A stretch of DNA of 64,000 nucleotides. Origin: an uncultured Myxococcales bacterium (lineage in GTDB: Bacteria > Myxococcota_A > Polyangia > Fen-1088). The notes below the pieces were generated by a model that saw only the letters and a list, made by a program, of their open reading frames with translations, had not been told where the DNA came from and searched no databases. The translations under genes and the position numbers were made by a program. The stretch lies in contig CAZIOH010000007.1 in assembly GCA_964540815.1 (NCBI GenBank), forward strand, positions 43,867 through 107,866, written 5' to 3'. Positions 12,964 through 50,235 of the stretch are shown one piece after another (position 1 is the first letter of the stretch; the number at the start of each line of letters is the position of its first letter).

Positions 12964-13962
12964 CTACGCGTGGCGCGACTCGGAATGGCGGGCGAAGGCG
13001 CGTACGAGCAGGGTCCGAGGCGCGTAGCAGGCGATCAGCATCCCGCCCATGAGCAACGCGAACCAGACCACAGGCCCGAACATGAGCGCGATCATCAGGT
13101 GCATGCCAAGTCCGACCACCAGCGCGGCCGTGCGGGTCCACGGCAGGGTGAACCAGAGCGGCGCGCCGAGTTCGAAGCCGAGCGTGATCGCCTGGAGGAT
13201 TCGCCAGCCCACCGCGGGGAGCGCGTTCATCACCTGCCACCCGACCGCCGTCTGGTAGTCGTCATGGAGGTGGCTCCACAGGACATCGCCCGACAACCAG
13301 TCGCCCCGTGCTTTCGCGATTCCCGACCCCGAGTACATGACCAGCAAGAAGGCCTGAAAGAACCGGACGGCTCCTCCTGAGACCTGCTCGGTCGGAGGGA
13401 GCGCGCCGGGCGAGGCCCGGCGGCTGCGTCGCCACGCATCGATGCCGAAACGAACGCCGCACGGGCTCGCCGAGAGCGCCAGCGACAGGACCGGGGCAGC
13501 CTTGGAGACCGTGAAGGCCTCGAGGCGATCCGCCAGGACCAGGTAGACGGTGAGCGCCGCAAAGGCCCCCGCGGCCTTGCGCGGGTGAAAGCCCACGGCG
13601 AGGCTGATTCCGGCGATGGCGGTCGCAGCCACGATCGCCCAGGCCGCCCAGCTTGGCACCGGGGGCAGGTAGAGCGGCTGTCGCCAGTCACCGCCCCCGA
13701 GATCCGGGGGATGGAAACCCTTCGAAGTCAGCCACTCGTCGGCGTGAATCATCCGCGACGACAGGAAGGCGAGCACGGCGACCGGCACCACGATGCGCAG
13801 CAGGACCAGCCGCTCGACCGGCTGAGGACCGAAGAGCCAGTCCGCGGCCCGTCGCGACGACCCGATCTCGGGGCGCCGGGGCCCTGCTTGGCCGCGCTCG
13901 TGTGGGGCGGCGGTCCCCCCCGTGTCCGAGGGAGCGCGTCGGCGCCCCGAGCCACCGGTCAC
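12964..13962 (-). CDS. HTTM-domain membrane protein (vitamin-K-dependent gamma-carboxylase-like)
   Basis: LVLLRIVVPVAVLAFL...W...GFHPPD... multi-TM HTTM pattern through to the C-terminus. GTG start at 13962..13960 overlaps the upstream gene's TGA (GTGA). The ORF-track N-terminal 176 aa are Arg/Gly-rich junk. Confidence 0.65.
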   Translation of the reverse strand: MTGGSGRRRAPSDTGGTAAPHERGQAGPRRPEIGSSRRAADWLFGPQPVERLVLLRIVVPVAVLAFLSSRMIHADEWLTSKGFHPPDLGGGDWRQPLYLPPVPSWAAWAIVAATAIAGISLAVGFHPRKAAGAFAALTVYLVLADRLEAFTVSKAAPVLSLALSASPCGVRFGIDAWRRSRRASPGALPPTEQVSGGAVRFFQAFLLVMYSGSGIAKARGDWLSGDVLWSHLHDDYQTAVGWQVMNALPAVGWRILQAITLGFELGAPLWFTLPWTRTAALVVGLGMHLMIALMFGPVVWFALLMGGMLIACYAPRTLLVRAFARHSESRHA

Positions 13963-14435
13963 GAGCGCTCCTGGCAGCGTTGCTCGCGAGCTGCGGAACC
14001 CGTCACGTACCAGTACCGTCTGGCGAGCGTGGCGGGATACGCCGAGAGGGGCTTTCGCTCGTAGCGCGGGTCGGCGACTCCCGGTGGTGGGATCGGGATG
14101 CGCAGGCTGAGAATCATCACGCCCCCGATTCGCTGTCCGGGGCGAGACCGATTCTGTGAGGCCACTATGTACGCGTCGAGCTCCCGCAAGACACGAGCCT
14201 CGCGGGAATAGAAGAACATCCCGCGATGGAATCGATTCTCCTTGTCGTTGGCGCGAATGGGAAAGAACGGGCGTACGTCGATCTCGTCGAACTGGCGCCG
14301 GTCGCAGAGCCAGCCCTTCACGCGCCACTCGATGGCGTCCTCGGCCGCGCGCGGAAACAACTCGGCGATCTGCGTGAAGAAGCGCACCGGGGCCGGGAGC
14401 GCGCGCCCCACCGCCCGCACGCCCGCCGCGTCCAT
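13959..14435 (-). CDS. Hypothetical protein translationally coupled to the HTTM gene
   Basis: Ordinary composition (FFTQIAELFPRAAEDAIEWRVKGWLCDRRQFDEIDVRPFFPIRANDKENRFHRGMFFYSREARVLRELDAYIV). Stop TGA overlaps the HTTM GTG. Start placed at M50 of the track ORF (14435). Confidence 0.45.
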   Translation of the reverse strand: MDAAGVRAVGRALPAPVRFFTQIAELFPRAAEDAIEWRVKGWLCDRRQFDEIDVRPFFPIRANDKENRFHRGMFFYSREARVLRELDAYIVASQNRSRPGQRIGGVMILSLRIPIPPPGVADPRYERKPLSAYPATLARRYWYVTGSAAREQRCQERS

Positions 14436-14926
14436 CCAGACCGCGCCGAGATAGCCGACCGCCAGCGCCAATCGCAAGTGGCCGCGCCAACCTCCGCCCC
14501 GCGCGGGTCCCCGATCGTGCGGGTAGCGACCACCCGCCTTTCCCGCCTTTCTTCTGGCTTCCCCAGGAACACCCGCTACCATCCGGACAGTCTATCCCCG
14601 GACGACCGTTGTTCGCCCGATCTGATGGCCCCGATCACTCCAGCGCGTCGCGCGGACTCGTGTGGCCCAGGCCGTGTTCTGCGCCTGGTCAATCGAAGCG
14701 GCGGCGGTCGTGGCGCCCACGTCACCGCGCTGGGTGTGGACGCGATCACGCCCGGCCGGGCTCCGGAGGACGGAAACTCTCGAGTCCCCAAGGAATATTG
14801 AGCAGCGCCGGGGGCGAGCCGAGACTACTCATGGGGTGGGTATGTCAGGAACATGAGGACATCTCAGGATCCGGACACCTCCTCCCAGCTATCCCTTCCG
14901 CTTTCCCCCCAAAATCGGAGGCCATC

Positions 14927-16389: not shown

Positions 16390-16980
16390 TCACCTCATGG
16401 ACGTCATGGTGGCCCGAGCCTGAGCTTCCCGGCCTTTGCAGATCGGCGTCGGCGCCGGCGCCGGCGAGGCCAGCGCCTGCCCCTCACGCTCGGCGCGGGC
16501 GACGGCGCCCGTCTTGAACGCCCAGCCACCGGCCTGGCGTAGCTCCGTCAGCCGCGCGCGCGCCGCCAACTGCGCCGGCGAAGCGGCGACGGGCTCCGCC
16601 TCGGCGCCCACGGACAGAGACTGCACCTCTCGCTCGGCACGGGCGACGGCGCCGGTCTTGTATGCCCAACCGCCAGCCTGGCGCAGCTCAGTCAACCGCG
16701 CCAGCGCAGCCGCCTGCTCGGGCGACGGCGCCGCAGGAGCCGGACACCCGTGCGCCCAGGCGACGGCTTGCGCTCTCTCCCGTTCGTCCCGTGCTGCTTC
16801 GCGCTGGGCCCGCTCGACGAGGCCAGTCTTGTACGCCCAGCCTCCCGCCCTCGCGAGCTCGGTGGCGCGGTCTCGAGCCGCGTTCGCGCCTGCCGCGATG
16901 CGCGTCTGTGAGGTGCCACGGTCGCTCGCTTGCGCGTTGGCACCCGTGGACCAGCCGAGCGCGAGCGCCGTGATGATCAT
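16390..16980 (-). CDS. Small secreted protein with three tandem 40-aa repeats (LTELRQAGGWAYKTGAVARAERE)
   Basis: Signal peptide MIITALALGWSTGANAQA. Repeats visible at both the protein and nucleotide level (16440-16900). Confidence 0.55.
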   Translation of the reverse strand: MIITALALGWSTGANAQASDRGTSQTRIAAGANAARDRATELARAGGWAYKTGLVERAQREAARDERERAQAVAWAHGCPAPAAPSPEQAAALARLTELRQAGGWAYKTGAVARAEREVQSLSVGAEAEPVAASPAQLAARARLTELRQAGGWAFKTGAVARAEREGQALASPAPAPTPICKGREAQARATMTSMR

Positions 16981-17232
16981 GCTACCCACTCTGGACAGTT
17001 CGCCTTTCGTGAACATGGTACTCCTTCCCTCTCTTCGCCCCGGTCGCAGGCTTTGATCAACCGTGCGGCGTCGGGGACGAATCGAAATCTCCCACCTGCC
17101 TCGTTAAAGTGTCGTTAAAAAGGCGGAGCCCTCGCGAGACGCCAATCTTGGATTTCGCCGCGTTGACGAAAGCGAACGACCAGGGACGACGGCCTGCACG
17201 ACGTGGGTGGCGGCGGGCTCGCTGGCGCGACC

Positions 17233-18816
17233 TCAGGTCACGAAGCCGGGCAACGGGCCGGTGTATTGCGCCACGCTCCCCAGCGACGGCAGCGTGACAC
17301 CGAAGATGGGGGCCAGCGCCAACCAGAAATCATTGAAGGGCCGGTTACCCGTTCCGCCGGTCGTATCGAGATCGATCTGCTTCGGCAGCGAGCCGCCCGT
17401 CACCTTCAGGAAGGTGCCGCCCTTGATCCGGGTGTTCTTCCCGCCAAGGACGATCAATGGCATGTTGAGCTGGCCGTGGTCCCAGCGGGTGGATTCGTCG
17501 TTGACGTACACGACGACGGTATTGTCGAGCAAGGTGTTGCCATCGAGGTCGGTCGCGGCGTCGAATGCTTGCAAGGCCTGCGAGGTCTGGTCGCTGTAGA
17601 AGCGATCGATGGCGGCCCCCCAGGCGAGGATGGCCCTTCCGGTGGTGTCCGCCGGTTCCAGGCCGAGTACCGCATAGTGGGGAGCGGCCAGCAGCGGGGC
17701 GTAGCCGGGTAGCATCGCGCCGTCGAAGGAGGTCGGAAAGAGGACATTGCTGGTACCTGCTGCCCACATGAACGTTCCCACGCGGATGAGATCACATAGA
17801 AACGCAGCCTTGATGATCTCGAGCTGGGTTCGCCCGAGCACCTGATGGGGATGGCTCGTGGGATCGCCTGGGATGTAGTAGTCCACGCCGGAGAGCGCAG
17901 AGACGCCGGTCGGCAGAAACTGAGCGCCGTTTGCCCCTACTCCCGTCTGCGCGAACATGGGCGGGCGCGGCGGGCGGATGCACACGGCCTGGGGGGGCAA
18001 CGACGCCCGGATGGCGGCCTCGAGACCCTGGATGGCGTCCGCGTGGGCGTCGAGCTTCACCTTCTCGGACGCCGGGATGAGCGTCCGGAGGCGCGTCAGA
18101 TCGCTCCGCATGTAGTCGAGGACGCTGAGCTTCTCGGCGAGCAACGCGGCCGAATCGCTGCCTACCGGCAGGGCGCCGCCGAAGAGACGATTGAAGGCAT
18201 TGAGCGGCTGGGTCTCGGGGTAGAGGGGCTGGCGGGCGAGAGCGATGTCGGGGTTCGCCGTCGGGGAAAGGTAGGAGAGCACGCGCGGCGCCACCTCGTC
18301 CCGATCCGAGCGAATGTCAGCCGCCAACTGCAACGACCCGAACGGGGTCCGGCCGCCGATGGGGGATCCCGCGCCCCCGAGCACCGGCGAGCGCGACAGG
18401 AGAAGCTGGTCGATCGAAGGACCGCCCGCCGCGTGATCCTGCTGGCCGATCTGGCCGAGGGTGGGCACGCCGGTCATGAGCGCGACCATCCCGCCCTCGG
18501 CGCTGTTTTGTCCGCCGCTGCCTCCGTTCAATGACGCGCACACCAGGTTGAGGCCGTCGATCATCGCCAACTTCGACTGCAAGGGCGCGAACGGCGCGCT
18601 GTTGGACGGCAGCGTGAAGCTGGTGGTCGTCACCGCCGCCGTGGGGCGCCACAGATCGAGGTCGCTGCCACAGGGGCGCTGGATGACCAGGAAGCGGAGC
18701 GGAGCGGGCATCCCCTGCGCCCGGGCTTCGATCCCGCGCAAGAGCGGCGCCAGCAAGGCGATGGAGCCGCCGCAGCTCCGCAGAAACGCGCGGCGGGCGA
18801 TCCGATACGCACTCAT
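17233..18816 (-). CDS. DUF1552-family protein with Tat signal
   Basis: MSAYRIARRAFLRSCGGSIALLAPLL twin-arginine signal. GGAGG upstream. ATG overlaps the upstream gene's stop (ATGA at 18813-18816). The track ORF up to 19557 is a junk extension. Confidence 0.8.
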   Translation of the reverse strand: MSAYRIARRAFLRSCGGSIALLAPLLRGIEARAQGMPAPLRFLVIQRPCGSDLDLWRPTAAVTTTSFTLPSNSAPFAPLQSKLAMIDGLNLVCASLNGGSGGQNSAEGGMVALMTGVPTLGQIGQQDHAAGGPSIDQLLLSRSPVLGGAGSPIGGRTPFGSLQLAADIRSDRDEVAPRVLSYLSPTANPDIALARQPLYPETQPLNAFNRLFGGALPVGSDSAALLAEKLSVLDYMRSDLTRLRTLIPASEKVKLDAHADAIQGLEAAIRASLPPQAVCIRPPRPPMFAQTGVGANGAQFLPTGVSALSGVDYYIPGDPTSHPHQVLGRTQLEIIKAAFLCDLIRVGTFMWAAGTSNVLFPTSFDGAMLPGYAPLLAAPHYAVLGLEPADTTGRAILAWGAAIDRFYSDQTSQALQAFDAATDLDGNTLLDNTVVVYVNDESTRWDHGQLNMPLIVLGGKNTRIKGGTFLKVTGGSLPKQIDLDTTGGTGNRPFNDFWLALAPIFGVTLPSLGSVAQYTGPLPGFVT

Positions 18817-20672
18817 CTCGTGCCTCCGGCGCGGGCGCGCGCGAAATCCGCGAGCAGGATTTGCCTGAACAGGGCCGACGCGGTTCCATCCGACTGACGG
18901 AACGCCGCGCGCAGGGCGTTGACCTCGCAGATGTTGCCGGGAGCAATCGCTTTGCCGATGGCGTAACCGGACATCTTGAGCACGGCGCAATCGGACAGCA
19001 GCCCGATCGTGGCCGGGGCCGCCGCAAACGCCTGCGGTCCGGAAAACGATGCGGGCGCAAGCGGCGAAGGCGGCACGAACGTGACCGACGGGTCGACGCT
19101 TCGGCCAACCTCGTCCGTCGTGGTGAACTTTCCGACCGCGTCGAAGTTCTGCAGCATCCGGCCGTACGGATCGAGCTGCCCGTGGCAATCGGAGCACAGC
19201 GGGCTTGCAAGCCGCGCATCGGACCGCGTCACCTCGCTGTCGCCCGTCGCATCGACCTTCCACGCCTCGGGCGAGGTCAGAAGAACTTCCTGGGGAACGG
19301 GCTCCTGACAGAACACGTTGTCTTGTATCAGCCTGCCGCGATTGATGATGCCGCCCGTGGTGGGATCGGACACCGCCCACAGGAAGGACGGCTGGGTCAA
19401 CATGCCGATGCGTGGCTCCGCCACCGGCCACGTCAAGGCGACGAACGTGGCGGGCAGCGGCTCGGTGAAGGGCAAACCGTAAAGAGTCGCCAGCCGCTGG
19501 TTGACGAACACCTTCTGCGAGGTGAGGAGATCGGTGACCTTGCCGGCGCTCGTCCACAGCACGTCAGCGATGAAGCGCCGGCCCGAGCTCAGCAACTCCC
19601 CCACGATGGCCGTGCTGTCCTGGTCCGCGGTCGCGAGTGGCGACAGCAGCACCTGATCCTTCGCCCCCTTGTTGAGCACGTCGTCCAGCCCGAACCAGGT
19701 GCCGACCAGGTTCGTCAGGTTCGAGCGCGTCGCCGGCAGCGCCAGCAGGCGGTCGAGCTGCGCCAGGATCCCCGCCCTGGTCGCGAGCCCCGCGTCGCCA
19801 GTCGCCGCCGCCGCCGCCAGCAGTTCGGCGTCCGGCGTCGTGCCGAGCAGGAGAAACCCGAGCTGCGTGGCGACCTCGTACGGGGTCAGGGTCGTGTCGG
19901 GATAGGCGCCCGTCACCGCATCCGCCGTCGCCGGGCTCGGCCCGAGCTCGCTCCGATACAAGAACGAGGGCGACAGGATCAACGCCTCGATCATCAAGCC
20001 GATGCCGTGGTCGAAGCCTTGGTTGGCGCCCACGGCGTAGACCTTCAAGAGATCGGTCACCTCGGCATCGGCGAGAGGCCGGCGGAGCGCGAGCAGCCCA
20101 AATGACCGCGCGAAGCGCGTCGCACATGCGTCGTCCGTCTCGCCGGTCATGCACGCGGCGACCTGCGAGACCCTGGGCGCGATCCGGGCGACCACCGACT
20201 CGGCGCCGCCGTAAAGAGCGAAGAGATCCTGGGAGGTGACCAACAGGTCCGGTCCGCCCGTCAAGGACGGGAGGTTGCCATTGGACGCGCTGGTGAGCGC
20301 CGGCGGCGCGGCGCCCAGCAGATCCTGGGTCACGCTCGCAAACTGGTTGTACGACAGGCGCCACAATCGGCGGCCGATGGGGAGCAGCGGCGTGCAGCCG
20401 AGAGTGGTCTCCCCGCCGTCGCCCCCGGCGCTGGTGCCCTGTCCGGCCGCATCCCCCTCCCCGCCGCCGCCACCCACACCGCCGCTGCCCGGAACCGCGG
20501 CGCCACCGCTACCGCCGGTGGCGGAAGAAGCACCGACCGTTCCCGCGGCTCCAGTTCTTCCTCCGACTCCCGCGAGCCCCCCGGTTCCGGGAGCTTGCGC
20601 GCTCCCCGAGCCGCAAGCAGCTGCCAGCAACGAAAGAAGCGGAATGACCGCGCGGCGGGGGGGGGCGAACAT
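18813..20672 (-). CDS. DUF1592/DUF1588-family lipoprotein (partner of DUF1552) with a CxxCH motif
   Basis: Lipobox LLAAAC. Family-typical regions (FLYRSELG, ...PLCSDCHGQLDPYG). 4-nt overlap with the downstream DUF1552 gene. Confidence 0.8.
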   Translation of the reverse strand: MFAPPRRAVIPLLSLLAAACGSGSAQAPGTGGLAGVGGRTGAAGTVGASSATGGSGGAAVPGSGGVGGGGGEGDAAGQGTSAGGDGGETTLGCTPLLPIGRRLWRLSYNQFASVTQDLLGAAPPALTSASNGNLPSLTGGPDLLVTSQDLFALYGGAESVVARIAPRVSQVAACMTGETDDACATRFARSFGLLALRRPLADAEVTDLLKVYAVGANQGFDHGIGLMIEALILSPSFLYRSELGPSPATADAVTGAYPDTTLTPYEVATQLGFLLLGTTPDAELLAAAAATGDAGLATRAGILAQLDRLLALPATRSNLTNLVGTWFGLDDVLNKGAKDQVLLSPLATADQDSTAIVGELLSSGRRFIADVLWTSAGKVTDLLTSQKVFVNQRLATLYGLPFTEPLPATFVALTWPVAEPRIGMLTQPSFLWAVSDPTTGGIINRGRLIQDNVFCQEPVPQEVLLTSPEAWKVDATGDSEVTRSDARLASPLCSDCHGQLDPYGRMLQNFDAVGKFTTTDEVGRSVDPSVTFVPPSPLAPASFSGPQAFAAAPATIGLLSDCAVLKMSGYAIGKAIAPGNICEVNALRAAFRQSDGTASALFRQILLADFARARAGGTR

Positions 20673-21947: not shown

Positions 21948-22412
21948 CGCGCAAAGACTTCCGGGCTGGTTCCTCACTGTGGTCACCTGGATCCCGAGCG
22001 ATTCGCGGTCTGGGGCGACTCGGCGGGCGGATACATGGCCGCCATGTTGGGCGTCACCGGGGACCAGCGTACGGTGTTCGACGGTCCCCAGCCCCGCTAC
22101 GCCGACGTATCCAGCGCGGTTCAGGCGGCCGTGGTCTGGTTTGGGGCGGAGGACCGTCTACCCGGGCGCGAGCTCAGCATCGCCGGCTATCTGCACGCCG
22201 CCCGAAATCTGCCCGCCTTCATGATCGCCAACGGCGACGCCGACCCGATCATCTCGCCCCGGCAGGCGCGGCGGCTTCATGAGGCCCTGCTTGCGGCAGG
22301 GGCGAGATCCACGCTCGTCATCCTGCCCGGCGCCGGTCACGAGGACCCCACGTTCACCGCGACCCAGATGCTCCCGACCATTTCCTTTCTCAAAGGAACC
22401 TTCGGTCGATAG
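21948..22412 (+). pseudogene. C-terminal fragment of an alpha/beta-hydrolase (esterase/lipase)
   Basis: Frame opens at 21948 directly after a stop. HLDPERFAVWGDSAGGYMAAML nucleophile elbow, then catalytic Asp/His region FMIANGDADPIISP...LPGAGHE. No N-terminal oxyanion-hole part. Confidence 0.5.
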
Positions 22413-22975: not shown

Positions 22976-23227
22976 GTTGCAGGGGGATGACGAGCTCTCG
23001 CGGGGCACGCTCAGCGAGCTCGTGGCGATGGTAAAGAACTTCTGGATGACGCCGGTCTAAACGGCGAGAACGACTCTACGCCCTCTACCTGGAATCGTCG
23101 TCACCGACTCCCTGGAATCGTCGTCACCGGCTCCAACGGGCTCACAACACCTTGACCATCCGCGTACCTTCTGCCTATCGTGAGTTTCTGGTACGCCGGG
23201 ACACAATGAAGGGATGGGGTGGCTAAC

Positions 23228-24019
23228 ATGAGGACGCGATGTCAGTCTTTGGGTCTCTTCTCCATATTGATTTTTAGTGGATTGGGCACCATAAGCTGCG
23301 CAGGCGACGCAGGGACGGTGGAGGGAGGCGCGGACCCCAGCGTGGGGGCAACGGCAAACGCTCTTCATAGTGGGTGTTCCGCGGGGACAGCATGTCAGCC
23401 GACCAACCCTTGCGAGTTTGGGAAGGTGTCTTGTTTGCGAGGAAGGGCAACCTGTGTCGCGACCGGAAATCTGCCCGCCGGAACTGCGTGCGCAACCGGT
23501 TCTGTATGTGACTCAGGCGGAAGTTGCGTCCCTACTTGTCATGCGGGCAGCGCATGTCGGCCTGGGAATCCCTGTAAGTTTGGGGTGATTTCTTGTTCCA
23601 CGGGGGTTTCGGATTGTGTCGAGGCAGGGAACCTACCAGTCGGAACCGCGTGCGGGACCAATTCGACATGCAACTCAGGCGGCAGCTGCGTCTCTGCTTG
23701 TCATGCAGGCGGCGCATGTCAGCCTGGGAATCCCTGTAAGTTTGGGGTGATTTCTTGTTCCACAGGGGTTTCGGTTTGTGTCGAGGCAGGGAACCTACCG
23801 GTCGGAACCGCGTGCGGGACCAATTCGACATGCAACTCAGGCGGCAGCTGCGTCTCTGCTTGTCATGCAGGCGGCGCATGTCAGCCTGGGAATCCCTGTA
23901 AGTTTGGGGCGATTTCTTGTTCCACAGGGGTTTCGGTTTGTGTCGAGGCAGGGAACCTACCAGTCGGAACCGCGTGCGGGACCAATATGAGCTGTGACGG
24001 TAGCGGGACCTGCCGCTAG
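23228..24019 (+). CDS. Lipoprotein made of four 54-aa cysteine-rich repeats (Myxococcus-type Cys-rich repeat)
   Basis: Signal/lipobox FSGLGTISC. Repeats CHAG(G/S)AC(Q/R)PGNPCKFGVISCSTGVS.CVEAGNLPVGTACGTNSTCNSGGSCVSA x4, six conserved Cys each. Confidence 0.7.
   Translation: MRTRCQSLGLFSILIFSGLGTISCAGDAGTVEGGADPSVGATANALHSGCSAGTACQPTNPCEFGKVSCLRGRATCVATGNLPAGTACATGSVCDSGGSCVPTCHAGSACRPGNPCKFGVISCSTGVSDCVEAGNLPVGTACGTNSTCNSGGSCVSACHAGGACQPGNPCKFGVISCSTGVSVCVEAGNLPVGTACGTNSTCNSGGSCVSACHAGGACQPGNPCKFGAISCSTGVSVCVEAGNLPVGTACGTNMSCDGSGTCR
23375..24019. repeat. 162-bp tandem nucleotide repeat (4 units; units 2-4 near-identical) inside the Cys-rich lipoprotein gene
   Basis: tgtcatgcaggcggcgcatgtcagcctgggaatccctgtaagtttgggg... 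recurs at 23699 and 23861 with near-perfect identity. Confidence 0.8.
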
Positions 24020-25791: not shown

Positions 25792-26046
25792 TCAAGTGCC
25801 TCGCTCGCGCATCGAATCATCGTAGCATCGCCTCACCACCCTCGCCTCAGGCCCGTCTGAAGCCCAAAGACGGCGCCGGTCTGGGCCTGCGTCACCCTGC
25901 CCAGGTCGCCGTTGCGCGTCTCGGCGCCGGCACCGAGACCCGTGTCCTCGCGAAACTCCGTTTGCGCGAATCGATGGAAGCACGCGAGCCGACGCCGCTC
26001 AGGGACCGCGACGGAACACTGCGCATCGTCGATAGCAGAGCGCAAT

Positions 26047-27111
26047 TCAGTACTCGCGGTTGACCATATAATCGAGGAGTGACCGGATGAAATCGAGGTC
26101 GTGACCCGGCGGGGCATCCGAGTACGCGTTCTCGAACTCTTGACGCGCGCCGTTGGCAAAAGCGTGGGCAGCCTGACGCGCGTACTCGAGGCTTCCGTAG
26201 GATCGCAAGAGTTCGTAGATCCAGGCCACCTCACGCTGGAGTCGCTGTGCTCTCGGCTTTGACAAGAACGTCGTCAGTCGCCGCCGTTCCTGTGCGCTGC
26301 TGGTCCTGAAAAGGTGTGCGAGGATAAGCGTCCGCTTGCCTTCGAACAAATCCCCGCCAATTTCCTTTCCGTAGGTACTTCGGTCGCCGGAGAGGTTCAG
26401 GATGTCGTCTTGAATCTGGAACGCAGTACCGAGAAAATAGCCAAATCGATTGAAGCCATCGAGATCGGTCCGGTCGGGCTCAGCGATGAGGGCGCCAATT
26501 CGCGCAGGATGAATAAAGCTGTACCAACCGGTCTTCTTCAGCACCATGAGCAAGTAGTCTTCTTCGGTGGTATGGCAATCGTTGTCGCGAATCCAACCAA
26601 GCTCCATCGCTTGGCCTTCGATTGTTTCGATCGACATGTGATCGAACTCGTCGAAAACCCTGGTCGCGAGTGAGGGGCCCAAGAGCGAGATATTCTGTCT
26701 CAGCAGCCGAACGCTCATCGCGTTCATCGCGTCGCCCACGTTGAGCGCCACGGGTACGCCGTATTGACGGTGCATCGTGGGACCATTCCGCCGGTATTCG
26801 CTTTCGTCCTCGATGTCGTCATGCACCAAGAAAGAGTTATGCAGAAGCTCGATGGCCGCGGCGGATGGCAGGGCACGCTCCTCGCCGCCTCCGAATGCCC
26901 GGCACGTCGCGAGACACAACGCTGGTCGAATGCCTTTGCCTTCGCGTGAGAGCTGGTCGGTGATCAGATCGTAGAGATGTCTCTTCGGCTCGCGGTCCGG
27001 GATGACGCTCAAGATCAGTGGCGTTACCTTTTGCCGATAGGACGCTAGTTGTCGCTCCAAGGTTCCACGATCGACGGAGAGGTCCGGCATAGCCGCGGCA
27101 TACGACGTCAT
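26047..27111 (-). CDS. Polyprenyl diphosphate synthase (trans-isoprenyl diphosphate synthase, GGPPS/FPPS-like)
   Basis: First and second aspartate-rich motifs FLVHDDIED and FQIQDDILN. ATG overlaps the upstream gene's stop (TGATG at 27109-27113). Confidence 0.85.
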   Translation of the reverse strand: MTSYAAAMPDLSVDRGTLERQLASYRQKVTPLILSVIPDREPKRHLYDLITDQLSREGKGIRPALCLATCRAFGGGEERALPSAAAIELLHNSFLVHDDIEDESEYRRNGPTMHRQYGVPVALNVGDAMNAMSVRLLRQNISLLGPSLATRVFDEFDHMSIETIEGQAMELGWIRDNDCHTTEEDYLLMVLKKTGWYSFIHPARIGALIAEPDRTDLDGFNRFGYFLGTAFQIQDDILNLSGDRSTYGKEIGGDLFEGKRTLILAHLFRTSSAQERRRLTTFLSKPRAQRLQREVAWIYELLRSYGSLEYARQAAHAFANGARQEFENAYSDAPPGHDLDFIRSLLDYMVNREY

Positions 27112-36000: not shown

Positions 36001-36254
36001 GTTACGCGGCCCTCGTATAGGATCACGGCGTCCCGGCATACCGCCTGGTAGCTTTCAAGAAGTTCAACAAGATCTTCCGGATCGAGTCTCTTGGATAGAC
36101 CGATCGAGTTGACGAGATCGCAAAAAAGGAAGGTGAGCGAACGCCGTTCACTCTCGAGGAGCCGCGTCCTTAGCGCCATTCCACAGGTGGCGCAGAACCG
36201 TGCTCCAGGCTGGATCGCGGCGCTACATCCTCTGCAAGACCCACTCGAATCCAT
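33018..36254 (-). CDS. Multidomain signalling ATPase: double zinc ribbon, class III adenylate/guanylate cyclase, AAA/NB-ARC ATPase and TPR
   Basis: CRGCSAAIQPGARFCATCG. Cyclase catalytic motifs FLFCDLVNS, GDGVVAFFG, RVGLHTGEAVVG. Walker A GEAGIGKS. Long TPR-like C-terminus. Stop overlaps the start of 32069..33034 by 17 nt. Confidence 0.8.
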   Translation of the reverse strand: MDSSGSCRGCSAAIQPGARFCATCGMALRTRLLESERRSLTFLFCDLVNSIGLSKRLDPEDLVELLESYQAVCRDAVILYEGRVTQFLGDGVVAFFGYPIAHEDDEVRATRAALRVVEDIKVVNQGIGKRLGVELHIRVGLHTGEAVVGQLGPSGSSQLLAVGENVNLAARIQSVAAPDTVVVSLATVKQIEGHFQVEALDPQSLKGFDEMVELFRIVAATGARTKLEAAARGQLTPRVGREREMALLASSWAEVQAGMFRVLLVRGEAGIGKSRLIHDFRQSALASGAEVMECFCSRLTDRAALAPIIEMLSAQVSKRAGDQTTPQAKLAALDDILREQGCSDEEVLPLMSSLFSIPGADEEPIRDLSPGRRRTRTLETIRSWLGSYARRSPVAFLVEDIHWADPSTLDLLDLIINEGSDGRTLICATARPEFRDRWLKPHVRTLDLPRLSGDAAEAIVTHVAGAHALQGLLVRQIVERSEGVPLFVEEVTKAVVESGAMPIANRNELEHSSDGEFVPATVQASIVARFDRLGEGRLVAQFGATIGREFVYPLVRAVTGMSDAELGRHLDRLCHSELVVSDGEPPNAVYTFKHALIQVAIRNTVLRKDRAVLHEKVFAKLRDELPELVEALPEMAAYHAEKAGLPGVAVPLLQEAGMRAFGRTAMAEAAKHLGHAIELVDALSEPARTTTEMELQATIGPAYMATLGWAVSQVERSSERLRDLATACGDVARLYQATWSLWTVYFLRGQLDPALEVAHQVLAMAVKSGDPLLRVTGHHAVGFTHERRGEYAEAIRHADEGLALFDLERERRIVTQFVFSSTCAILWFRGQSQLATGQVKDGIESLSRAAELVDELRHAPSRCFLLSQQCWSLADEDIGKVQRLAQSMRSLAIVEGFALWVHYADIFLAWAAARQHGDAAAAVDKIRAAMAQMHKDRSHVQDNELATILAETLLLAGRPEEAFGALEETLAAARRGQQRHLEAELFRFQGEAAKDMGDLSRAMTFYRQAIDSARSVGARLLELRASLGLARIGGARERAQLKTVFEGFTEGFDHIDMKKASAFLMARATGGELDVLRA

Positions 36255-36514
36255 TGGTCCGCCTCCCTACACGTTGCATCGCGTGATCCAGTAAGCGTAA
36301 GTAACATAAGGTGAGACAGAAACCAAGGGCGCGAATCGACGGATCCAGGGCATGGGACGCCCGCCCGTTCGGGAGTGTCTCCGGACCATGGGAACTGGCA
36401 GCTCATTCGCTCCCTGTGGACAACATCGTGATCCGCGTGAAATCAGGAGACAATTTCGCGAGACTAAGGTGGCCTCGAGAGCACAGGAAATTTGACCCAG
36501 GCTGCCCATTCTAG

Positions 36515-36600: not shown

Positions 36601-36728
36601 GCTTCGCGGGCTCTGCGGTGAGCGGATCCCAAGACGAACGAAAGACGGGTGCTGTCGTGTCAGCCCCACCCAACCGCTGATGGAGATGCCCAATCGATGG
36701 TCGTTGGGCGGCGTGGTAAGAGTTCACC

Positions 36729-46855: not shown

Positions 46856-48217
46856 TCAGGCGAAGCCCGACAGCGGCCCGGTGCACCATTCGGCCTTCCC
46901 GAAGGTCGTCGCCGGAATGTCCATGGCCTGCAGGATCGAGACCAGCAGGTTGTTGTGAGGGGGATCGCCGGTGAACGATAGAAAGCGACCGGTGCGCACG
47001 GCACCCCCGGCCTGACCGGCGAGCACGTAAGGGGCCAGCTTGCGGCTGTGGTTGTTTCCCTTGCCGAGCTCGTTGCACCAGAAGACCAGCGACGCGTCCA
47101 GGAGCCGGCTGCCGTCGACCTCCTGCGCGCCGGCCAGCTTGCCGACCAGGGCGGCGAAGCGCTCGGCATACCAGTGGTTGATGCGGGTCAGCTTGTCGAC
47201 CGCCTGCGCGTCGTCGTCGGGCAGGTGTGACAGATCGTGGTGAACGTCCGTGATCGGTTGCGGAAGCCAGGTGAAGCGGGTCTGCGACACCGAGCGCGAC
47301 CATTGCAGCGACGCCACGCGCGTCAGGTCGCACGCGAGCGCAACCACCAGCAGATCGATCTGCAGATCTCCGATTGCTGGAAAGTCGTCATTCGTGCCCC
47401 CGCCCCCGGCGGGCAAGGAGGGCGCGCCGGGATCGCGGCAGGACGGACTCGGCACGGCGAGTGAGTCGAGGCGCGTCTCGATGTCGCGAACGATGGTGGC
47501 ATGCGCGTCCAGGCGCACCCGATCGGCCGCTCCGACCCGCGCCCTGACCGCTTGAAACTGGCCGAGCACGGCGTCGAGGACGCTCCTCCGTCGTGCACGC
47601 AGGCGCGCCAGGTCCTCGGCCGAGGCCCCCCCCGCCGCGCCAAACAGCCGGGCATACGCCCGCTCGGGGCTCTCTTCGGGCGGGACCGGCTGATCGGGAC
47701 CAACGTAGCTCATGCGACCCCAGTTGTCCGCGGCCCCAACCTGAACTCCCAGCTCCAAGGAACGCAGACGGGTCCCGGACCCGAGCGTCGCCGCCACCTG
47801 CTGATCGACCGAGATTCCGTTGGCCCAACCCGAGGCGCCCGCGCTCGCTCCCCCCTGGAACGGGCCCGGATTGAGGCTCTGGCCGGTCAGCATGCCGCCG
47901 ATCCCGTTCTGGTGACCGTCGCCGCCGCCGCCCTGCTGAAAGAGGCCCGAGACCACCAGCAGGTCGGCTTGAAGAGCGCCGAGGGGATCGAGGATCGGCG
48001 CCAGCGCGAAGTCGGTCTCGGTACCCGAGGGAACCCAGTTCGGGAAGATGGTGCCGTTCGGGGTGAAGACCACCACGAATCGCTTGGGAATCACGGTCGC
48101 GGCCCGCGCGTGGCCGGGGTCCATCGCCTCGAGCAAGGGGAGCGTGAAGGCGGCGCCCGCCGTGCGCAGAACCGCGCGGCGGGAAAGGAGCGGACGACCT
48201 GTCTTGATGACGATCAT
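46856..48217 (-). CDS. DUF1552-family protein with Tat signal (second copy)
   Basis: MIVIKTGRPLLSRRAVLRTAGAAFTLPLLEA. Homologous throughout to 17233..18816. ATG overlaps the upstream stop (48214-48217). Confidence 0.8.
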   Translation of the reverse strand: MIVIKTGRPLLSRRAVLRTAGAAFTLPLLEAMDPGHARAATVIPKRFVVVFTPNGTIFPNWVPSGTETDFALAPILDPLGALQADLLVVSGLFQQGGGGDGHQNGIGGMLTGQSLNPGPFQGGASAGASGWANGISVDQQVAATLGSGTRLRSLELGVQVGAADNWGRMSYVGPDQPVPPEESPERAYARLFGAAGGASAEDLARLRARRRSVLDAVLGQFQAVRARVGAADRVRLDAHATIVRDIETRLDSLAVPSPSCRDPGAPSLPAGGGGTNDDFPAIGDLQIDLLVVALACDLTRVASLQWSRSVSQTRFTWLPQPITDVHHDLSHLPDDDAQAVDKLTRINHWYAERFAALVGKLAGAQEVDGSRLLDASLVFWCNELGKGNNHSRKLAPYVLAGQAGGAVRTGRFLSFTGDPPHNNLLVSILQAMDIPATTFGKAEWCTGPLSGFA

Positions 48218-49893
48218 GGCGCGATGACCTCCGGGGCTCGTCGATATCGAAAGGCGTCGGTCTGGGTCAGGGCGACCATCAGCTCGCGAACGTCGCCACC
48301 CTTGGCGGAGGCGGCGTCCATCAACGCTCCGAGCGTGCAGGAGTCAGCGGCGGTCTCGGCGCGGCCGTAGCCGAAACGGAACCACTGCGTGACGTAGCAG
48401 CGCTGAACTTCCGGGCTGGCCGCCAGGCGGTCGGCGAGCTCGACCGCGCCGTCGAACGGCCCGTCCGAGTCGGTGCCGGTCAAGGCGCCGTGGGCGTCGA
48501 TGGTCAGCCCCGACTCGGTTGTTCGCCAATGGCCGAGGCCGTCGTAGTGCTCGAACCCGAAGCCGATCGGATCCAGCATGGTGTGACAGGTGGCGCAGAA
48601 CGGGTCGGCGGTGTGCGCGGCGAATCGCTGGCGGGTCGTCTGGCGCGGATCGAGGGCGGGGGGCCGAATCTCGACGTTGCTCGGCGGCGGCGGTGGCGTC
48701 GTGCAAAAGAGCTGCTCGCGAACGAACCGTCCTCGGTGGACCGGCGAGCTCTGATTTGCCTTCGCGTAGACCGCCAAGATGGATGCCTGGGTGAGGAGGC
48801 CGGCCCGGTTGGTGGACCCGAGGCCCACCTGGACCAGGTCGCCGCCGCCGGGGTAGGCCACGCCATAGAAGTCCGCCAGGGTGCTGTCCACGAAGGTGTA
48901 TCGCGCCGACAGCAACGCCGAAAGCGTCCCCTCGTGGTTCCAGATGACCTCGTCGATGAATCGCGCAGTCTCGGCTCGAAACGCATCCCGCAGCGAAGGC
49001 GAATACGCGGGATAGACCACGCGATCCTTGTCCAGCTGATCGAGGCGATCGAGGCCCAGCCAGCCGGCGTGAAACGCCGCCGTGACCTCGTGGGCGCGCG
49101 CGTCGCCGAGCAACCTTCGCGCCTCCCGCTCGAGATCCTCAGGAAGCGTCAGTCGGTCCTCGGCGGCCGCCGCCAGCAGGGCGTCGTCGGGCGTCGAGCC
49201 CCACATGAGATACGACAGGCGCGTCGCCAACTCGTGGGACGAGAGCGGAACCGCACCCGGGAGATCGGAGGCTGCGCCATTGCCGAGCTCGATCCGGTAC
49301 AGGAACTGCGGACTCTCGAACAGGACCTGGACCACACGCCCGATCCCCTCGGTGAAGCCACCGTCGTTCTGCCCGGCGACAAAGACGGTCTGGAGCGCCG
49401 CGGTCTCATCCGATTCCAACGGACGGCGCCAGACGCGACCACCGAAGGCACCAATGAAGCTGTCGGCACATCGGCTGTCCGGGGAGGTCGTCGCGCACGG
49501 AAGAAACCGACCGAGGTCCTGGAGCATCACCGACGATGCCTGCTCCGCGAGAGCCACCGTTTGCTCCACCAGGAGATCGCTGGTTCCGAGGACGTCGGCG
49601 TTGTTGTCGAAGCCGAGCGCCTGCTCGTCGGGGGGAAGTCCCGATGTGTCGACCAGCCCCGGCCCCAGGAGATCGCGGAGCGTTCGCCCGTACTCCGCGC
49701 GCGTCAGTCGGCGCAGCGGCGACGGACCCGAGTCGCGCGATGCGCAGAGCGGGGCCGCGCGTCCGCCAACGCGCGGTGGGGGCGAGTCGGCGTGGCTCCG
49801 GCAGCCAGTCCATGTCGCCGTGACCAGTCCCGCGAGGCCGAGCAACGACACACACGACCTCACGTGGGGTGTCTGGATGGCCATCGTCGTCAT
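48214..49893 (-). CDS. DUF1592/DUF1588-family lipoprotein with CxxCH motif (second copy)
   Basis: GGGAGG Shine-Dalgarno before ATG 49893. Lipobox TATWTGC. ...DPFCATCHTMLDPIGFGFEHYD. Homologous to 18813..20672. Confidence 0.75.
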   Translation of the reverse strand: MTTMAIQTPHVRSCVSLLGLAGLVTATWTGCRSHADSPPPRVGGRAAPLCASRDSGPSPLRRLTRAEYGRTLRDLLGPGLVDTSGLPPDEQALGFDNNADVLGTSDLLVEQTVALAEQASSVMLQDLGRFLPCATTSPDSRCADSFIGAFGGRVWRRPLESDETAALQTVFVAGQNDGGFTEGIGRVVQVLFESPQFLYRIELGNGAASDLPGAVPLSSHELATRLSYLMWGSTPDDALLAAAAEDRLTLPEDLEREARRLLGDARAHEVTAAFHAGWLGLDRLDQLDKDRVVYPAYSPSLRDAFRAETARFIDEVIWNHEGTLSALLSARYTFVDSTLADFYGVAYPGGGDLVQVGLGSTNRAGLLTQASILAVYAKANQSSPVHRGRFVREQLFCTTPPPPPSNVEIRPPALDPRQTTRQRFAAHTADPFCATCHTMLDPIGFGFEHYDGLGHWRTTESGLTIDAHGALTGTDSDGPFDGAVELADRLAASPEVQRCYVTQWFRFGYGRAETAADSCTLGALMDAASAKGGDVRELMVALTQTDAFRYRRAPEVIAP

Positions 49894-50235
49894 GTCCCGA
49901 TCCTCCCTTCCCGCGTCGTTCGCTCCTGCGGTCGTATCCGACGCGGCGACCCGCGGTGCCAAGGAAGGAGAGCAACAGCCGTGCCGGACGGATTCGGTCC
50001 CGGAAGGGTGATCCACCGCGGCGTAGTCGCAGGATTGCGGCGCGAAGCCATGGATCCGGACGTCCGCGCGACGTCCAGCGGACGTACGCGGCGATCCCTC
50101 GGGTGTGGGGAGTCCATCGATCTCGGCATAGGGGAAAGGGTCTGCGCGGGAACACCTCCGAGCACCGTTGCAAAATGTGGCTCCTTCCGTCCAATTCCGC
50201 GGATCCCGCAGGCGTGATATGGATCGTCTGTTGCC

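What the first reader, a model, noticed from the sequence alone, without database searches (positions are those of the whole stretch)
17233..20672. DUF1592-family lipoprotein with CxxCH motif translationally coupled to a Tat-exported DUF1552 protein
The two genes share a 4-nt ATGA start/stop overlap. The DUF1592-type protein is a lipoprotein and contains PLCSDCHGQLDP, a c-type-haem-binding-like CxxCH. The DUF1552 partner carries a twin-arginine signal, implying it is exported folded and possibly with a cofactor. This pair is widespread in Planctomycetes, Verrucomicrobia and myxobacteria and, as far as I know, remains functionally uncharacterised. The export route and motif hint at a periplasmic redox or binding module.
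Basis: partly seen in the sequence, partly recalled or inferred. Interest (0 to 1): 0.5.

Follow-up and report, generated by a model that had tools for sequence, protein, structure and literature searches.

The report
Haem-motif lipoprotein with degenerate sulfatase-fold partner
This is a real copy of a very large, already-described but functionally unknown bacterial gene pair: a membrane-tethered protein with a haem-attachment motif, plus a Tat-exported partner that has a sulfatase-like fold and, in this copy, has lost most of its family's conserved histidine cluster.

Summary
Gene A (18813-20672, minus strand, 619 aa) matches Pfam DUF1595, DUF1592 and DUF1588/PSCyt3. It has a lipobox and one CSDCH. 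Gene B (17233-18816, minus strand, 527 aa) matches DUF1552 and has an ARRAFLR Tat motif. The two genes overlap by ATGA, with a GGAGG just upstream.

The pairing of PSCyt3 genes with DUF1552 genes is already published, with no function assigned (He et al. 2017).

New results here:
- **Motif conservation.** C-x2-3-C-H is present in every family member that covers the site, down to about 30% identity.
- **Fold of A.** It is all-alpha and has no solved relative. It is not a cytochrome c fold, and no second haem ligand is conserved.
- **Histidine cluster.** The family carries a co-varying set of residues (H106, HHxxSH, H447). The flagged B has lost H106, H381, S384 and H385. Its clade is still under purifying selection.
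- **Pairing and context.** Copies with an intact cluster are always coupled to an A gene, and in Polyangia they often sit in sugar-utilisation loci. Copies with a degenerate cluster do not sit there, and some lack an A gene.
- **Second pair.** A canonical pair lies at 46856-50016 in the same window.

Verdict: a divergent variant of a known, uncharacterised module. Interest is moderate.

The parts
18813..20672 (-). Gene A: 619-aa lipoprotein of the PSCyt3/PSD type (DUF1595-DUF1592-DUF1588-DUF1585)
   Evidence: ORF and translation. Pfam hits. A 100% identical protein, P0001, is called on metagenome contigs. AlphaFold model has pLDDT 84.3 and is all-alpha from residue 93 onward.
20613..20672 (-). 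Lipoprotein signal peptide of A, ending in the lipobox L-A-A-A-C20
   Evidence: Read directly from the sequence. The Cys is in the same column in 89% of 122 diverse relatives. A lipobox-like pattern is found in 95 of 120 close homologs.
20397..20612 (-). Gly/Ala/Ser/Thr-rich tether (residues 21-92 of A), predicted disordered
   Evidence: Composition is 31 G, 12 A, 7 S and 7 T out of 72 residues. pLDDT is below 50 for residues 1-87.
19947..20126 (-). DUF1595 / PSD5 domain (residues 183-242 of A)
   Evidence: Pfam E 8.8e-16, 58.5 bits.
19473..19889 (-). DUF1592 / PSD4 domain (residues 262-400 of A)
   Evidence: Pfam E 1.1e-22, 81.4 bits.
19116..19412 (-). DUF1588 / PSCyt3 domain (residues 421-519 of A)
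   Evidence: Pfam E 5.3e-16, 59.1 bits.
19182..19196 (-). C493-S-D-C496-H497, the putative haem c attachment motif
   Evidence: Sequence. C493, C496 and H497 are each 100% conserved in 122 diverse members. All 136 representatives that cover the site have CxxCH or CxxxCH.
18852..19049 (-). DUF1585 / PSD2-like region (residues 542-607 of A), below the Pfam threshold
   Evidence: 24.5 bits against a cut-off of 25.8. The paralog in the window scores 67.8 bits.
18823..18827 (-). GGAGG Shine-Dalgarno for gene B, lying inside the 3' end of gene A
   Evidence: Sequence.
18813..18816 (-). ATGA overlap between the stop of A and the start of B
   Evidence: The same RTGA overlap occurs in 34 of the 36 distinct pairs (both window pairs included), and a 1-nt overlap in the other 2.
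17233..18816 (-). Gene B: 527-aa Tat-exported DUF1552 protein with an alkaline-phosphatase-superfamily fold
18718..18816 (-). Tat signal peptide of B (residues 1-33; RR at 18790-18795; A-R-A then Q)
   Evidence: Sequence. An RRxFL-type motif is present in 117 of 120 homologs; the other three lack the N-terminus.
17662..17682 (-). Degenerate family motif P-H-Y-A-V-L-G (residues 379-385 of B), where the subfamily consensus is P-H-H-P-P-S-H
   Evidence: Alignments, profile-profile alignment, and the truncated Pfam match.
48214..50016 (-). Paralogous gene A2: canonical DUF1587-1595-1592-1588-1585 lipoprotein with CATCH. The probable true start is the ATG at 49893.
   Evidence: Pfam. 29% identical to A over residues 103-614. 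Start codon and lipobox W-T-G-C.
46856..48217 (-). Paralogous gene B2: canonical DUF1552 (453 aa) with an intact HHDLSH motif, a Tat motif and an ATGA overlap with A2
   Evidence: Pfam E 1e-87, profile positions 1-307 of 307. Sequence and junction.

Best explanation
The two genes encode a co-translated, two-subunit periplasmic module of the known 'PSCyt3/PSD + DUF1552' type.

**Gene A.** The product is exported unfolded by Sec and lipidated at Cys20. It hangs from a membrane on a roughly 70-residue flexible tether. Its compact all-alpha body most likely carries one covalently bound haem c on C493-x-x-C496-H497. That haem is probably five-coordinate, or is completed by a ligand that is not conserved.

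**Gene B.** The product folds in the cytoplasm, is exported by Tat, and has the alkaline-phosphatase/sulfatase fold.

**The family in general.** In typical members, B carries a cluster of conserved residues: H106, H380-H381-x-x-S384-H385, E440/441 and H447. I infer that these sit at the canonical active-site end of the fold and bind a metal. Those members are always coupled to an A gene. In Polyangia they often lie in sugar-uptake and sugar-catabolism loci. The typical module is therefore most likely a metal-dependent enzyme that acts on a sugar- or glycan-derived substrate. The haem lipoprotein would be its membrane-anchored partner, for electron transfer or for capturing substrate.

**The flagged copy.** It belongs to a Polyangia clade in which B has lost H46, H47, H106, H381, S384 and H385. 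It keeps the Tat signal, the coupling to A and A's CxxCH, and it remains under purifying selection. It most likely works as a catalytically altered or non-catalytic (binding or scaffolding) version of the module.

**Shown:** gene structure, coupling, export signals, folds, motif conservation, the degeneracy of B, and the genomic contexts.

**Inferred:** haem attachment, A-B complex formation, metal binding by the His cluster, and the class of substrate.
For: - **Domains and signals:**
- **Coupling:** 34 of the 36 distinct pairs (both window pairs included) overlap by 4 nt and 2 by 1 nt. GGAGG lies upstream of B.
- **Cys-Cys-His:** invariant in 122 diverse members. The family is large, with 14,236 clusters at 50% identity and E <= 1e-3.
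- **CxxxCH:** it replaces CxxCH in one clade only. Both spacings are known haem c attachment motifs (general knowledge).
- **His cluster:** H106 and HHxxSH are kept together in 62 of 121 subfamily members and lost together in nearly all the others. The loss maps to one large clade plus about two smaller events. The same residues are at least 95% conserved in the 26%-identical canonical subfamily: H102, H326, H327, S330, H331, E383 and H390 of B2.
- **Pairing:** every His-intact B with enough upstream sequence is paired with an A gene. The four unpaired B genes checked with upstream room (L006, L009, L029, L049) are His-degenerate where typed; L049 was not typed.
- **Contexts of intact pairs:** XylR and LacI regulators, Porin_4, Laminin_G_3, CE2/GDSL esterases, three GH54 genes, and Leloir-pathway plus sugar-ABC operons.
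- **Purifying selection in the flagged clade:** dN/dS is 0.21-0.30 for B and 0.33-0.44 for A.
Against: - No experiment exists for any member of either family.
- The six other conserved Cys of the mature protein suggest a disulfide-rich protein, so CxxC could be structural or could bind a metal.
- No alkaline-phosphatase-fold enzyme is known to be redox-active, so the reason for a haem partner is unclear.
- I placed the His cluster at the active site from the secondary-structure order and from co-variation.
- Most loss of the His cluster is a single phylogenetic event. The co-variation therefore rests on about three events.
- Many of the sugar-locus contexts are orthologous loci in related MAGs, so they are not independent.
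- The flagged pair itself has no informative neighbours.
Confidence: 0.5

Rival explanations
1. The CxxCH of A does not bind haem. It is a structural disulfide or a metal site (Zn, Fe or Cu) in a disulfide-rich periplasmic lipoprotein. On this view A is a non-redox substrate-binding or scaffolding partner, working like a glycan-binding surface lipoprotein, for the alkaline-phosphatase-fold protein B.
For: - No cytochrome c fold is detected in a confident model.
- No distal ligand is conserved. The nearly invariant H450 of the subfamily is Q in the query, and R in the paralog A2 and in some loci.
- The mature protein has eight conserved Cys.
- The motif sits at the C-terminal end of the Pfam domain, which is unlike class I cytochromes.
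- A is an all-alpha lipoprotein of about 550 aa found next to porins and sugar genes.
Against: - The His directly after the second Cys is 100% conserved across roughly 30%-identity relatives. A disulfide would not require it.
- The only variant tolerated is CxxxCH, which is itself a known haem c motif.
- Export is by the Sec/lipoprotein route, as cytochrome c maturation requires. Only 10 of 120 close homologs have an RR in the first 15 residues.
Confidence: 0.25
2. The module is a periplasmic oxidoreductase built like SorAB and similar systems. B would be a Tat-exported catalytic subunit whose His cluster holds a redox-active metal (Fe or Cu). A would be its dedicated c-type cytochrome, passing electrons to or from the respiratory chain during oxidation of a sugar or other small substrate.
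For: - The layout is 'Tat-exported enzyme plus adjacent Sec-exported CxxCH protein' with tight translational coupling.
- The conserved site is rich in His rather than Asp or Ser.
- Pairing with A is strict only when the His cluster is intact.
- The spacing of A's motif (CxxxCH) changes in one of the clades in which B lost the cluster.
- A domain-comparison study lists DUF1587, DUF1588, DUF1592 and DUF1595 as present in facultatively anaerobic Pseudomonas and absent from obligately aerobic ones (PMC7789669).
Against: - All structural neighbours of B are hydrolases, transferases or mutases. None is a redox enzyme.
- The flagged pair and its clade keep A, its CxxCH and the coupling even though B has lost the cluster.
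- No quinone-interacting or other electron-transfer gene is consistently adjacent.
Confidence: 0.15
3. B is simply a divergent sulfatase or phosphoesterase that removes sulfate or phosphate from glycans. A is an unrelated co-expressed lipoprotein.
For: - The best structural matches are carbohydrate S1 sulfatases.
- He et al. report sulfatase genes near PSCyt genes in Verrucomicrobia (PMC5615132).
- An FGE-sulfatase family gene lies between two pairs in L067.
Against: - Neither B nor B2 has a C/S-x-P/A-x-R formylglycine motif.
- The end of strand beta-1 carries Q-R (query), H-H (subfamily) or F-T (B2) where sulfatases have the metal-binding Asp residues (placement inferred).
- No Pfam Sulfatase, Phosphodiest or Metalloenzyme hit appears even at E <= 10.
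- The 4-nt overlap with A is conserved in every pair.
Confidence: 0.1

Closest known systems
PSCyt3/PSD 'group III' proteins paired with DUF1552 genes, first defined in Rhodopirellula baltica (Studholme et al. 2004, cited from memory) and described in Verrucomicrobia by He et al. 2017 (PMC5615132)
   Same: The domain set is the same: PSD5, PSD4, PSCyt3 and a weak PSD2. The CxxCH is present, and a DUF1552 gene is immediately adjacent. Function is unknown in all cases.
   Different: - The host is an uncultured Polyangia (Myxococcota) lineage, not a PVC bacterium.
- Pfam does not detect PSD3/DUF1587 in A.
- B is about 75 residues longer than canonical DUF1552 and has lost the His/Ser motif.
The canonical pair in the same window (46856-50016)
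   Same: Same gene order, same ATGA overlap, lipobox and CxxCH in A2, Tat motif in B2.
   Different: - Identity is only 29% (A) and 26% (B).
- B2 matches the full Pfam model (295 bits) and keeps HHDLSH.
- That pair lies beside a sigma-54 activator and within 10 kb of two GH6-domain genes.
DUF1501 + PSCyt1/PSCyt2/PSD1 modules of the PVC superphylum (Kamneva et al. 2012, PMC3542564)
   Same: The logic is the same: a CxxCH-bearing multi-domain secreted protein next to a protein that often carries a Tat signal and has no known function. These modules are highly amplified, and some members carry carbohydrate-binding domains.
   Different: The Pfam families differ on both sides. I did not test any DUF1501 protein here, so a shared fold with DUF1552 remains untested.
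S1 (formylglycine) sulfatases and phosphonate monoester hydrolases of the alkaline-phosphatase superfamily
   Different: - Sequence identity is 9-15%.
- There is no C/S-x-P-x-R motif.
- The metal-binding Asp residues at the end of strand beta-1 are missing (inferred).
- There is no sequence-profile match.
- The conserved residues are mostly His.
Tat-exported enzyme plus Sec-exported c-type cytochrome pairs such as sulfite dehydrogenase SorAB (general knowledge)
   Same: The two subunits use different export routes, the genes are adjacent and co-expressed, and the smaller redox partner carries CxxCH.
   Different: In SorAB the Tat subunit holds a molybdenum cofactor, and the cytochrome has a small class I fold. 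Here the Tat subunit has a hydrolase-type fold, and the CxxCH protein is a 600-aa all-alpha lipoprotein with no cytochrome c fold.

Membership tests
PSCyt3/PSD group III protein (Pfam DUF1588 with DUF1592, DUF1595, DUF1585, DUF1587) | DUF1588/PSCyt3, DUF1592/PSD4 and DUF1595/PSD5 matches above their gathering scores | tested here: met
   59.1, 81.4 and 58.5 bits against cut-offs of 27, 23.3 and 34.2.
PSCyt3/PSD group III protein | DUF1585/PSD2 and DUF1587/PSD3 domains | tested here: inconclusive
   PSD2 scores 24.5 bits against a cut-off of 25.8, and PSD3 is not reported. However, BLASTP aligns residues 103-614 of A to residues 101-592 of the paralog A2, which includes A2's PSD3 and PSD2 regions.
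PSCyt3/PSD group III protein | Conserved CxxCH inside the PSCyt3 region | tested here: met
   CSDCH at residues 493-497. The column is invariant in 122 diverse members.
PSCyt3/PSD group III protein | Adjacent DUF1552 gene | tested here: met
   ATGA overlap with the DUF1552 gene. The same arrangement holds in all 36 distinct pairs examined.
DUF1552 (Pfam PF07586, 'HXXSHH') | Profile match above the gathering score | tested here: met
   128.8 bits against a cut-off of 30, but only profile positions 1-272 of 307 are matched.
DUF1552 (Pfam PF07586, 'HXXSHH') | The His/Ser motif that gives the family its name (HHxxSH in these sequences), plus the conserved H106 equivalent | tested here: not met
   The query has P-H-Y-A-V-L-G and A106. 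The subfamily consensus is P-H-H-P-P-S-H with H106, and B2 has H-H-D-L-S-H with H102.
Tat substrate | Twin-arginine motif (S/T-R-R-x-F-L-K type), then a hydrophobic region and an A-x-A site | tested here: met
   A-R-R-A-F-L-R, then GGSIALLAPLL, then A-R-A followed by Q. The motif is present in 117 of 120 homologs. Actual Tat dependence cannot be tested with these tools.
Bacterial lipoprotein | Signal peptide ending in a lipobox with an invariant Cys | tested here: met
   L-A-A-A-C20 after a basic, hydrophobic N-terminus. The Cys column is 89% conserved. Position -3 is Ala rather than Leu/Val/Ile, so the box is acceptable but not ideal. This judgement rests on the PROSITE-type pattern, recalled from general knowledge.
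c-type cytochrome | CxxCH haem attachment motif on a Sec-exported protein | tested here: met
c-type cytochrome | Recognisable cytochrome c fold or a conserved sixth ligand | tested here: not met
c-type cytochrome | Covalently bound haem | not testable with these tools
   This needs haem staining, spectroscopy or mass spectrometry of the expressed protein.
S1 sulfatase / alkaline-phosphatase superfamily | Alkaline-phosphatase-type alpha/beta core fold | tested here: met
S1 sulfatase / alkaline-phosphatase superfamily | C/S-x-P-x-R formylglycine motif (sulfatases) | tested here: not met
   No match to [CS]-x-[PA]-x-R in B or B2.
S1 sulfatase / alkaline-phosphatase superfamily | Canonical metal ligands (Asp at the end of strand beta-1; Asp-His/Asn after the central strand) | tested here: inconclusive
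   Strand beta-1 (residues 41-46) is followed by Q-R in the query, H-H in the subfamily and F-T in B2. The strand at 433-438 is followed by N-D-E...D446-H447. Positions were assigned from secondary-structure order, not from superposed coordinates.

The most novel reading that the evidence does not exclude
The haem of the lipoprotein and the histidine cluster of the alkaline-phosphatase-fold partner together form one inter-subunit redox centre. That would be a previously unknown class of periplasmic haem/metal enzyme built on a sulfatase scaffold. It would be used by Polyangia, Planctomycetes and Verrucomicrobia to process sugars or glycans oxidatively. The flagged pair would then be a natural 'His-less' derivative that has been repurposed. 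Three observations point this way: pairing is strict only when the cluster is intact, A lacks a conserved sixth haem ligand, and the spacing of A's motif changes in one clade that lost the cluster.
Probability: 0.1. Interest if true: 0.8.

Novelty: new variant of a known kind. Interest (0 to 1): 0.4.

Why it matters
The A family alone has more than 14,000 clusters at 50% identity in public data. It is amplified to many copies per genome in Polyangia, Planctomycetes and Verrucomicrobia, and no member has a known function.

Three results make the problem experimentally approachable:
- The Tat partner has a sulfatase-like scaffold with a co-varying histidine cluster.
- Copies with an intact cluster are always coupled to the haem-motif lipoprotein, and they often sit in galactose, arabinan or xylan-type loci.
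- Natural variants that have lost the cluster exist, including the flagged one.

These results point to which residues to mutate, which substrates to try, and which natural pairs to compare. On its own, the flagged pair is a divergent member of a known uncharacterised module. It is not a new system.

Tried and rejected
- **Sequence searches against the PDB.** Both proteins, and the B profile, gave only chance hits.
- **NCBIfam.** No family matched either protein.
- **AFDB search for B.** I wanted it to test kinship with DUF1501, but the library was unavailable.
- **H450 of A as the sixth haem ligand.** Rejected. It is Q in the query, R in the paralog A2 and in some loci, and Y in another, and it does not track the state of B.
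- **The neighbours as part of the module.** Rejected. None of the four tested (the 208-aa repeat protein, the convergent Cys-rich 584-aa ORF, the 225-aa ORF, the HTTM protein) has a tblastn match in any related locus.
- **Promoter and terminator scan of 16.2-21.2 kb.** It found no promoter and one terminator-like site at 17178-17194, which is fewer than shuffled sequence gives. Not informative.
- **Weak Pfam hits for B at E <= 10.** There were none to Sulfatase, DUF1501 or phosphodiesterase families.
- **A Tat signal on A.** A's N-terminus contains RR, but only 10 of 120 close homologs have RR there. I treat it as a Sec/lipoprotein signal.
- **Coordinates.** I could not measure Cys-Cys distances, a haem cavity, or the 3D clustering of the His residues.

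Full report
**1. What is there**

On the minus strand, an ORF at 18813-20672 encodes a 619-aa protein, called A here. A second gene, called B, starts at the ATG at 18816 and ends at 17233, and encodes 527 aa. The mechanical ORF list extends B upstream to a GTG at 19557. That extension lies inside gene A, so it is not the real start.

The stop of A and the start of B share ATGA, and a GGAGG lies 7 nt upstream of B's ATG. GC3 is 0.85-0.86 in both called frames. The long ORF on the opposite strand has 0.65 at its own third codon position. The same two genes, at the same lengths, are called on several metagenome contigs that carry an identical A protein.

**2. Family assignments**

Pfam places A in DUF1595/PSD5 (residues 183-242), DUF1592/PSD4 (262-400) and DUF1588/PSCyt3 (421-519). 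A DUF1585/PSD2 match (542-607) falls just below threshold. B is DUF1552, at E 4e-37. NCBIfam has nothing for either protein.

- A starts MFAPPRRAVIPLLSLLAAAC. A lipobox Cys at residue 20 is followed by a 72-residue Gly/Ala-rich stretch that the model leaves disordered.
- B starts MSAYRIARRAFLRSCGGSIALLAPLLRGIEARAQG, a good Tat signal. 117 of 120 homologs have the RRxFL-type motif, and the other three lack the N-terminus.

**3. What is already known**

He et al. 2017 (PMC5615132, main text and Text S1) state that PSCyt3 pairs exclusively with PSD4, and often with PSD2, PSD3 and PSD5. [quoted passage not shown]

Kamneva et al. 2012 (PMC3542564) describe the analogous DUF1501 + PSCyt1/2/PSD1 modules. 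They speculate about electron transport and about an enzyme exported by Tat.

Full-text searches for the DUF names and Pfam accessions found no functional study. The kind of pair is therefore known, and its function is not.

**4. The CxxCH**

- Among the 120 closest homologs, 106 have CxxCH. The other 14 have CxxxCH in the same column.
- An exhaustive HMMER search of 1.84 billion representatives found 14,236 clusters at E <= 1e-3.
- Of the 146 new representatives returned, 136 have CxxCH or CxxxCH. The 10 without it are fragments whose match ends before the motif.
- In 122 full-length members at roughly 30-50% identity, C493, C496 and H497 are each 100% conserved.
- C174, C183, C455 and C562 are conserved at 98-100%. 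C93 and C582 are at 87% and 93%. The lipobox Cys is at 89%.

I consider haem c attachment the most likely reading. The invariant His immediately after the second Cys, the only tolerated variant being CxxxCH, and Sec-type export all fit that reading. It remains unproven.

**5. The Tat partner**

There is no similarity at the sequence level. There are no PDB hits with a profile and no other Pfam hit at E <= 10. The sulfatase C/S-x-P-x-R motif is absent.

**6. A co-varying histidine cluster, lost in the flagged copy**

In the Polyangia subfamily, about half of the members (62 of 121) carry three features together: H46-H47 at the end of strand beta-1, H106 at the start of the helix after strand beta-2, and P-H-H-P-P-S-H at 379-385.

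In nearly all the others, H106 is Ser or Ala and the motif reads H-Y-x-x-L-S or similar. A neighbour-joining tree shows one large clade that has lost the cluster, plus about two smaller losses.

A profile-profile alignment with the 26%-identical canonical subfamily (probability 100%) lines these positions up with residues that are at least 95% conserved there: H102, H326, H327, S330, H331, E383 and H390 of B2.

The flagged B reads Q46-R47, A106 and P-H-Y-A-V-L-G. It keeps only H380, D440/E441 and D446-H447. Consistently, its Pfam match ends at profile position 272 of 307. An intact subfamily member (P0134) and B2 both match positions 1-307.

From the order of strands and helices in the model, and from general knowledge of the superfamily, I infer that H46/H47 and H106 occupy the positions of the beta-1 metal ligand and the nucleophile helix.

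The flagged clade is not decaying. Against its two nearest relatives, dN/dS is 0.21-0.30 for B and 0.33-0.44 for A.

**7. Pairing and context**

A scan of species-representative genomes returned 59 loci. Nearly all are from uncultured Polyangia/Myxococcota MAGs, often with several copies per MAG.

From these loci, the contig look-ups and the window itself I extracted 36 distinct A-B pairs. Thirty-four overlap by 4 nt and two by 1 nt. Every His-intact B with enough upstream sequence is paired in this way.

Four B genes have no A within about 6 kb: those in L006, L009, L029 and L049. Upstream of them lie a fasciclin gene, an ECF sigma factor gene, unknown genes, and an Fe-ADH gene. L049 was not typed.

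The CxxxCH form of A goes with one B class, H-H / S106 / H-Y-x-x-L-[SN].

| Kind of pair | Neighbouring genes |
|---|---|
| His-intact | XylR- and LacI-type regulators, Porin_4, Laminin_G_3 proteins, CE2/GDSL esterases |
| His-intact | three GH54 arabinofuranosidase-domain genes |
| His-intact | sugar ABC transporter, GalE, GalK, (GalT) directly upstream |
| His-degenerate: window, L069, L071-L073 | kinases, sigma factors, an OEP and other genes. L071 alone has a GH5 cellulase about 5 kb away. No sugar-utilisation locus |

A pooled scan of 70 neighbouring ORFs from 21 intact-pair loci gave these counts: epimerase 6, ABC permease 5, galactokinase 4, 2OG-Fe(II) oxygenase 4, CARME 4, GDSL 3, Porin_4 3, GalT 2. 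Many of these loci are orthologous, so the counts overstate how independent they are.

None of the window pair's own neighbours recurs in any related locus.

**8. A second pair in the window**

The region 46856-50016 (minus strand) holds a canonical pair. A2 carries DUF1587, DUF1595, DUF1592, DUF1588 and DUF1585, has CATCH, and probably starts at the ATG at 49893 with lipobox W-T-G-C. B2 is DUF1552 at E 1e-87, has HHDLSH, and has a Tat motif. The two overlap by ATGA. This pair lies next to a sigma-54 activator and within 10 kb of two genes with GH6 domains.

**9. Interpretation**

The module is best read as a stoichiometrically co-expressed periplasmic pair. One subunit is a tethered lipoprotein that probably carries haem. 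The other is a Tat-exported protein on an alkaline-phosphatase scaffold, whose typical form carries a His-rich site that is presumably a metal site.

The genomic contexts suggest that typical members act on sugars or glycans. Whether the haem transfers electrons, senses something, or is purely structural cannot be decided from sequence.

The flagged copy is a derivative that has lost most of the His cluster but is still under selection. It is probably catalytically altered or non-catalytic.

The rival explanations are set out separately with their probabilities. They are that CxxCH does not bind haem, that the module is a SorAB-like oxidoreductase, and that B is a plain sulfatase or phosphatase.

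**10. Verdict**

This is a new variant (partner with a degenerate motif, Polyangia-specific subfamily) of a known, uncharacterised kind.

Interest is moderate, at 0.4. A specialist would not be surprised by the pair itself. However, the fold assignment, the co-varying His cluster, its link to pairing, and the sugar-locus contexts give concrete handles on a very large family of unknown function.

Noticed in passing
window 46856-50016 (-): A second, canonical DUF1587-1595-1592-1588-1585 + DUF1552 pair. It has an ATGA overlap, CATCH, an intact HHDLSH and a Tat motif. Its proteins are only 29% and 26% identical to the flagged pair.
   Followed up: yes
window 51657-54503 (+) and 57829-59322 (-): A 948-aa protein fuses an N-terminal Ser/Thr protein kinase domain to a GH6 (cellulase family) domain. 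A second, 497-aa GH6 protein lies about 3 kb away. A kinase-GH6 fusion is unusual and could be a carbohydrate-sensing kinase.
   Followed up: no
window 50236-51660 (+): A sigma-54 activator with an N-terminal FHA domain lies directly next to the canonical pair and is co-directional with the kinase-GH6 gene. Its stop overlaps that gene's start at 51657-51660.
   Followed up: no
L006, L009, L029, L049 (B at about 6000-7550 in L006, L029 and L049, and about 5720-7280 in L009): These are 'orphan' DUF1552 genes with no PSCyt3-type gene within about 6 kb. The upstream genes are fasciclin, an ECF sigma factor, unknown genes, and Fe-ADH. L006, L009 and L029 have a degenerate His cluster; L049 was not typed.
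   Followed up: partly
L014, L072, L073 (A genes ending at about 6004 in L014 and 7004 in L072 and L073): One clade of A proteins has CxxxCH (for example CADNCH, CATNCH, CADSCH) instead of CxxCH. In all six pairs I could link, its partner B is of the class H-H / S106 / H-Y-x-x-L-[SN].
   Followed up: partly
L016 2695-7620; L067 7001-15593: Unusual arrangements. L016 has A-B followed by a second, unpaired B copy. L067 has one A-B pair, then a 263-aa ORF and an FGE-sulfatase family gene on the opposite strand, then a second pair in the reverse order (B then A).
   Followed up: no
window 16390-17016 (-): A 208-aa secreted protein lies 216 nt downstream of B. It has three repeats of AGGWA[YF]KTG[AL]V[AE]RA[EQ]RE. 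It has no Pfam match and no relative in any related locus.
   Followed up: partly
window 23219-24019 (+), repeat at 23511-23986: A Cys-rich secreted ORF contains a 162-nt tandem repeat (2.9 copies, 96% matches). The repeat encodes a 54-aa unit with eight Cys. There is no Pfam match.
   Followed up: partly
window 22035-22412 (+): A 125-aa ORF matches only the C-terminal part of the prolyl oligopeptidase (S9) and dienelactone hydrolase families. It may be a gene remnant or an ORF with a miscalled start.
   Followed up: no
window 26047-33034 (-): A cluster on one strand: polyprenyl synthase, an FAD amine-oxidase/desaturase-like protein, DUF3237, an encapsulin shell protein (Linocin_M18), an unknown 244-aa ORF, and a DUF3237-globin fusion. 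It may be an encapsulin cargo system.
   Followed up: no
window 43166-44167 (+): A PAAR motif fused to a Peptidase_M91 effector domain, which looks like a type VI secretion toxin. It lies in the lower-GC part of the window.
   Followed up: no
window 26000-46000: GC content is 0.60-0.65 here, against 0.67-0.72 in the flanks (2-kb windows). The region may have a different origin from the rest of the window.
   Followed up: no
window 12964-14490 (-) and 39601-41322 (+): An HTTM (vitamin K-dependent carboxylase-like) domain protein lies a few kb downstream of the flagged pair on the same strand. Separately, there is a DUF1554 protein, which is another of the DUF families first described in Rhodopirellula.
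   Followed up: no
L065 10534-13581 and similar loci (L011, L023, L030): Downstream of His-intact pairs in the galactose-operon context, one block of genes recurs: a roughly 224-aa unknown, a 2OG-Fe(II) oxygenase, a CARME-type methyltransferase and a small PSCyt1 (cytochrome c-like) protein. This may be an extended operon.
   Followed up: partly
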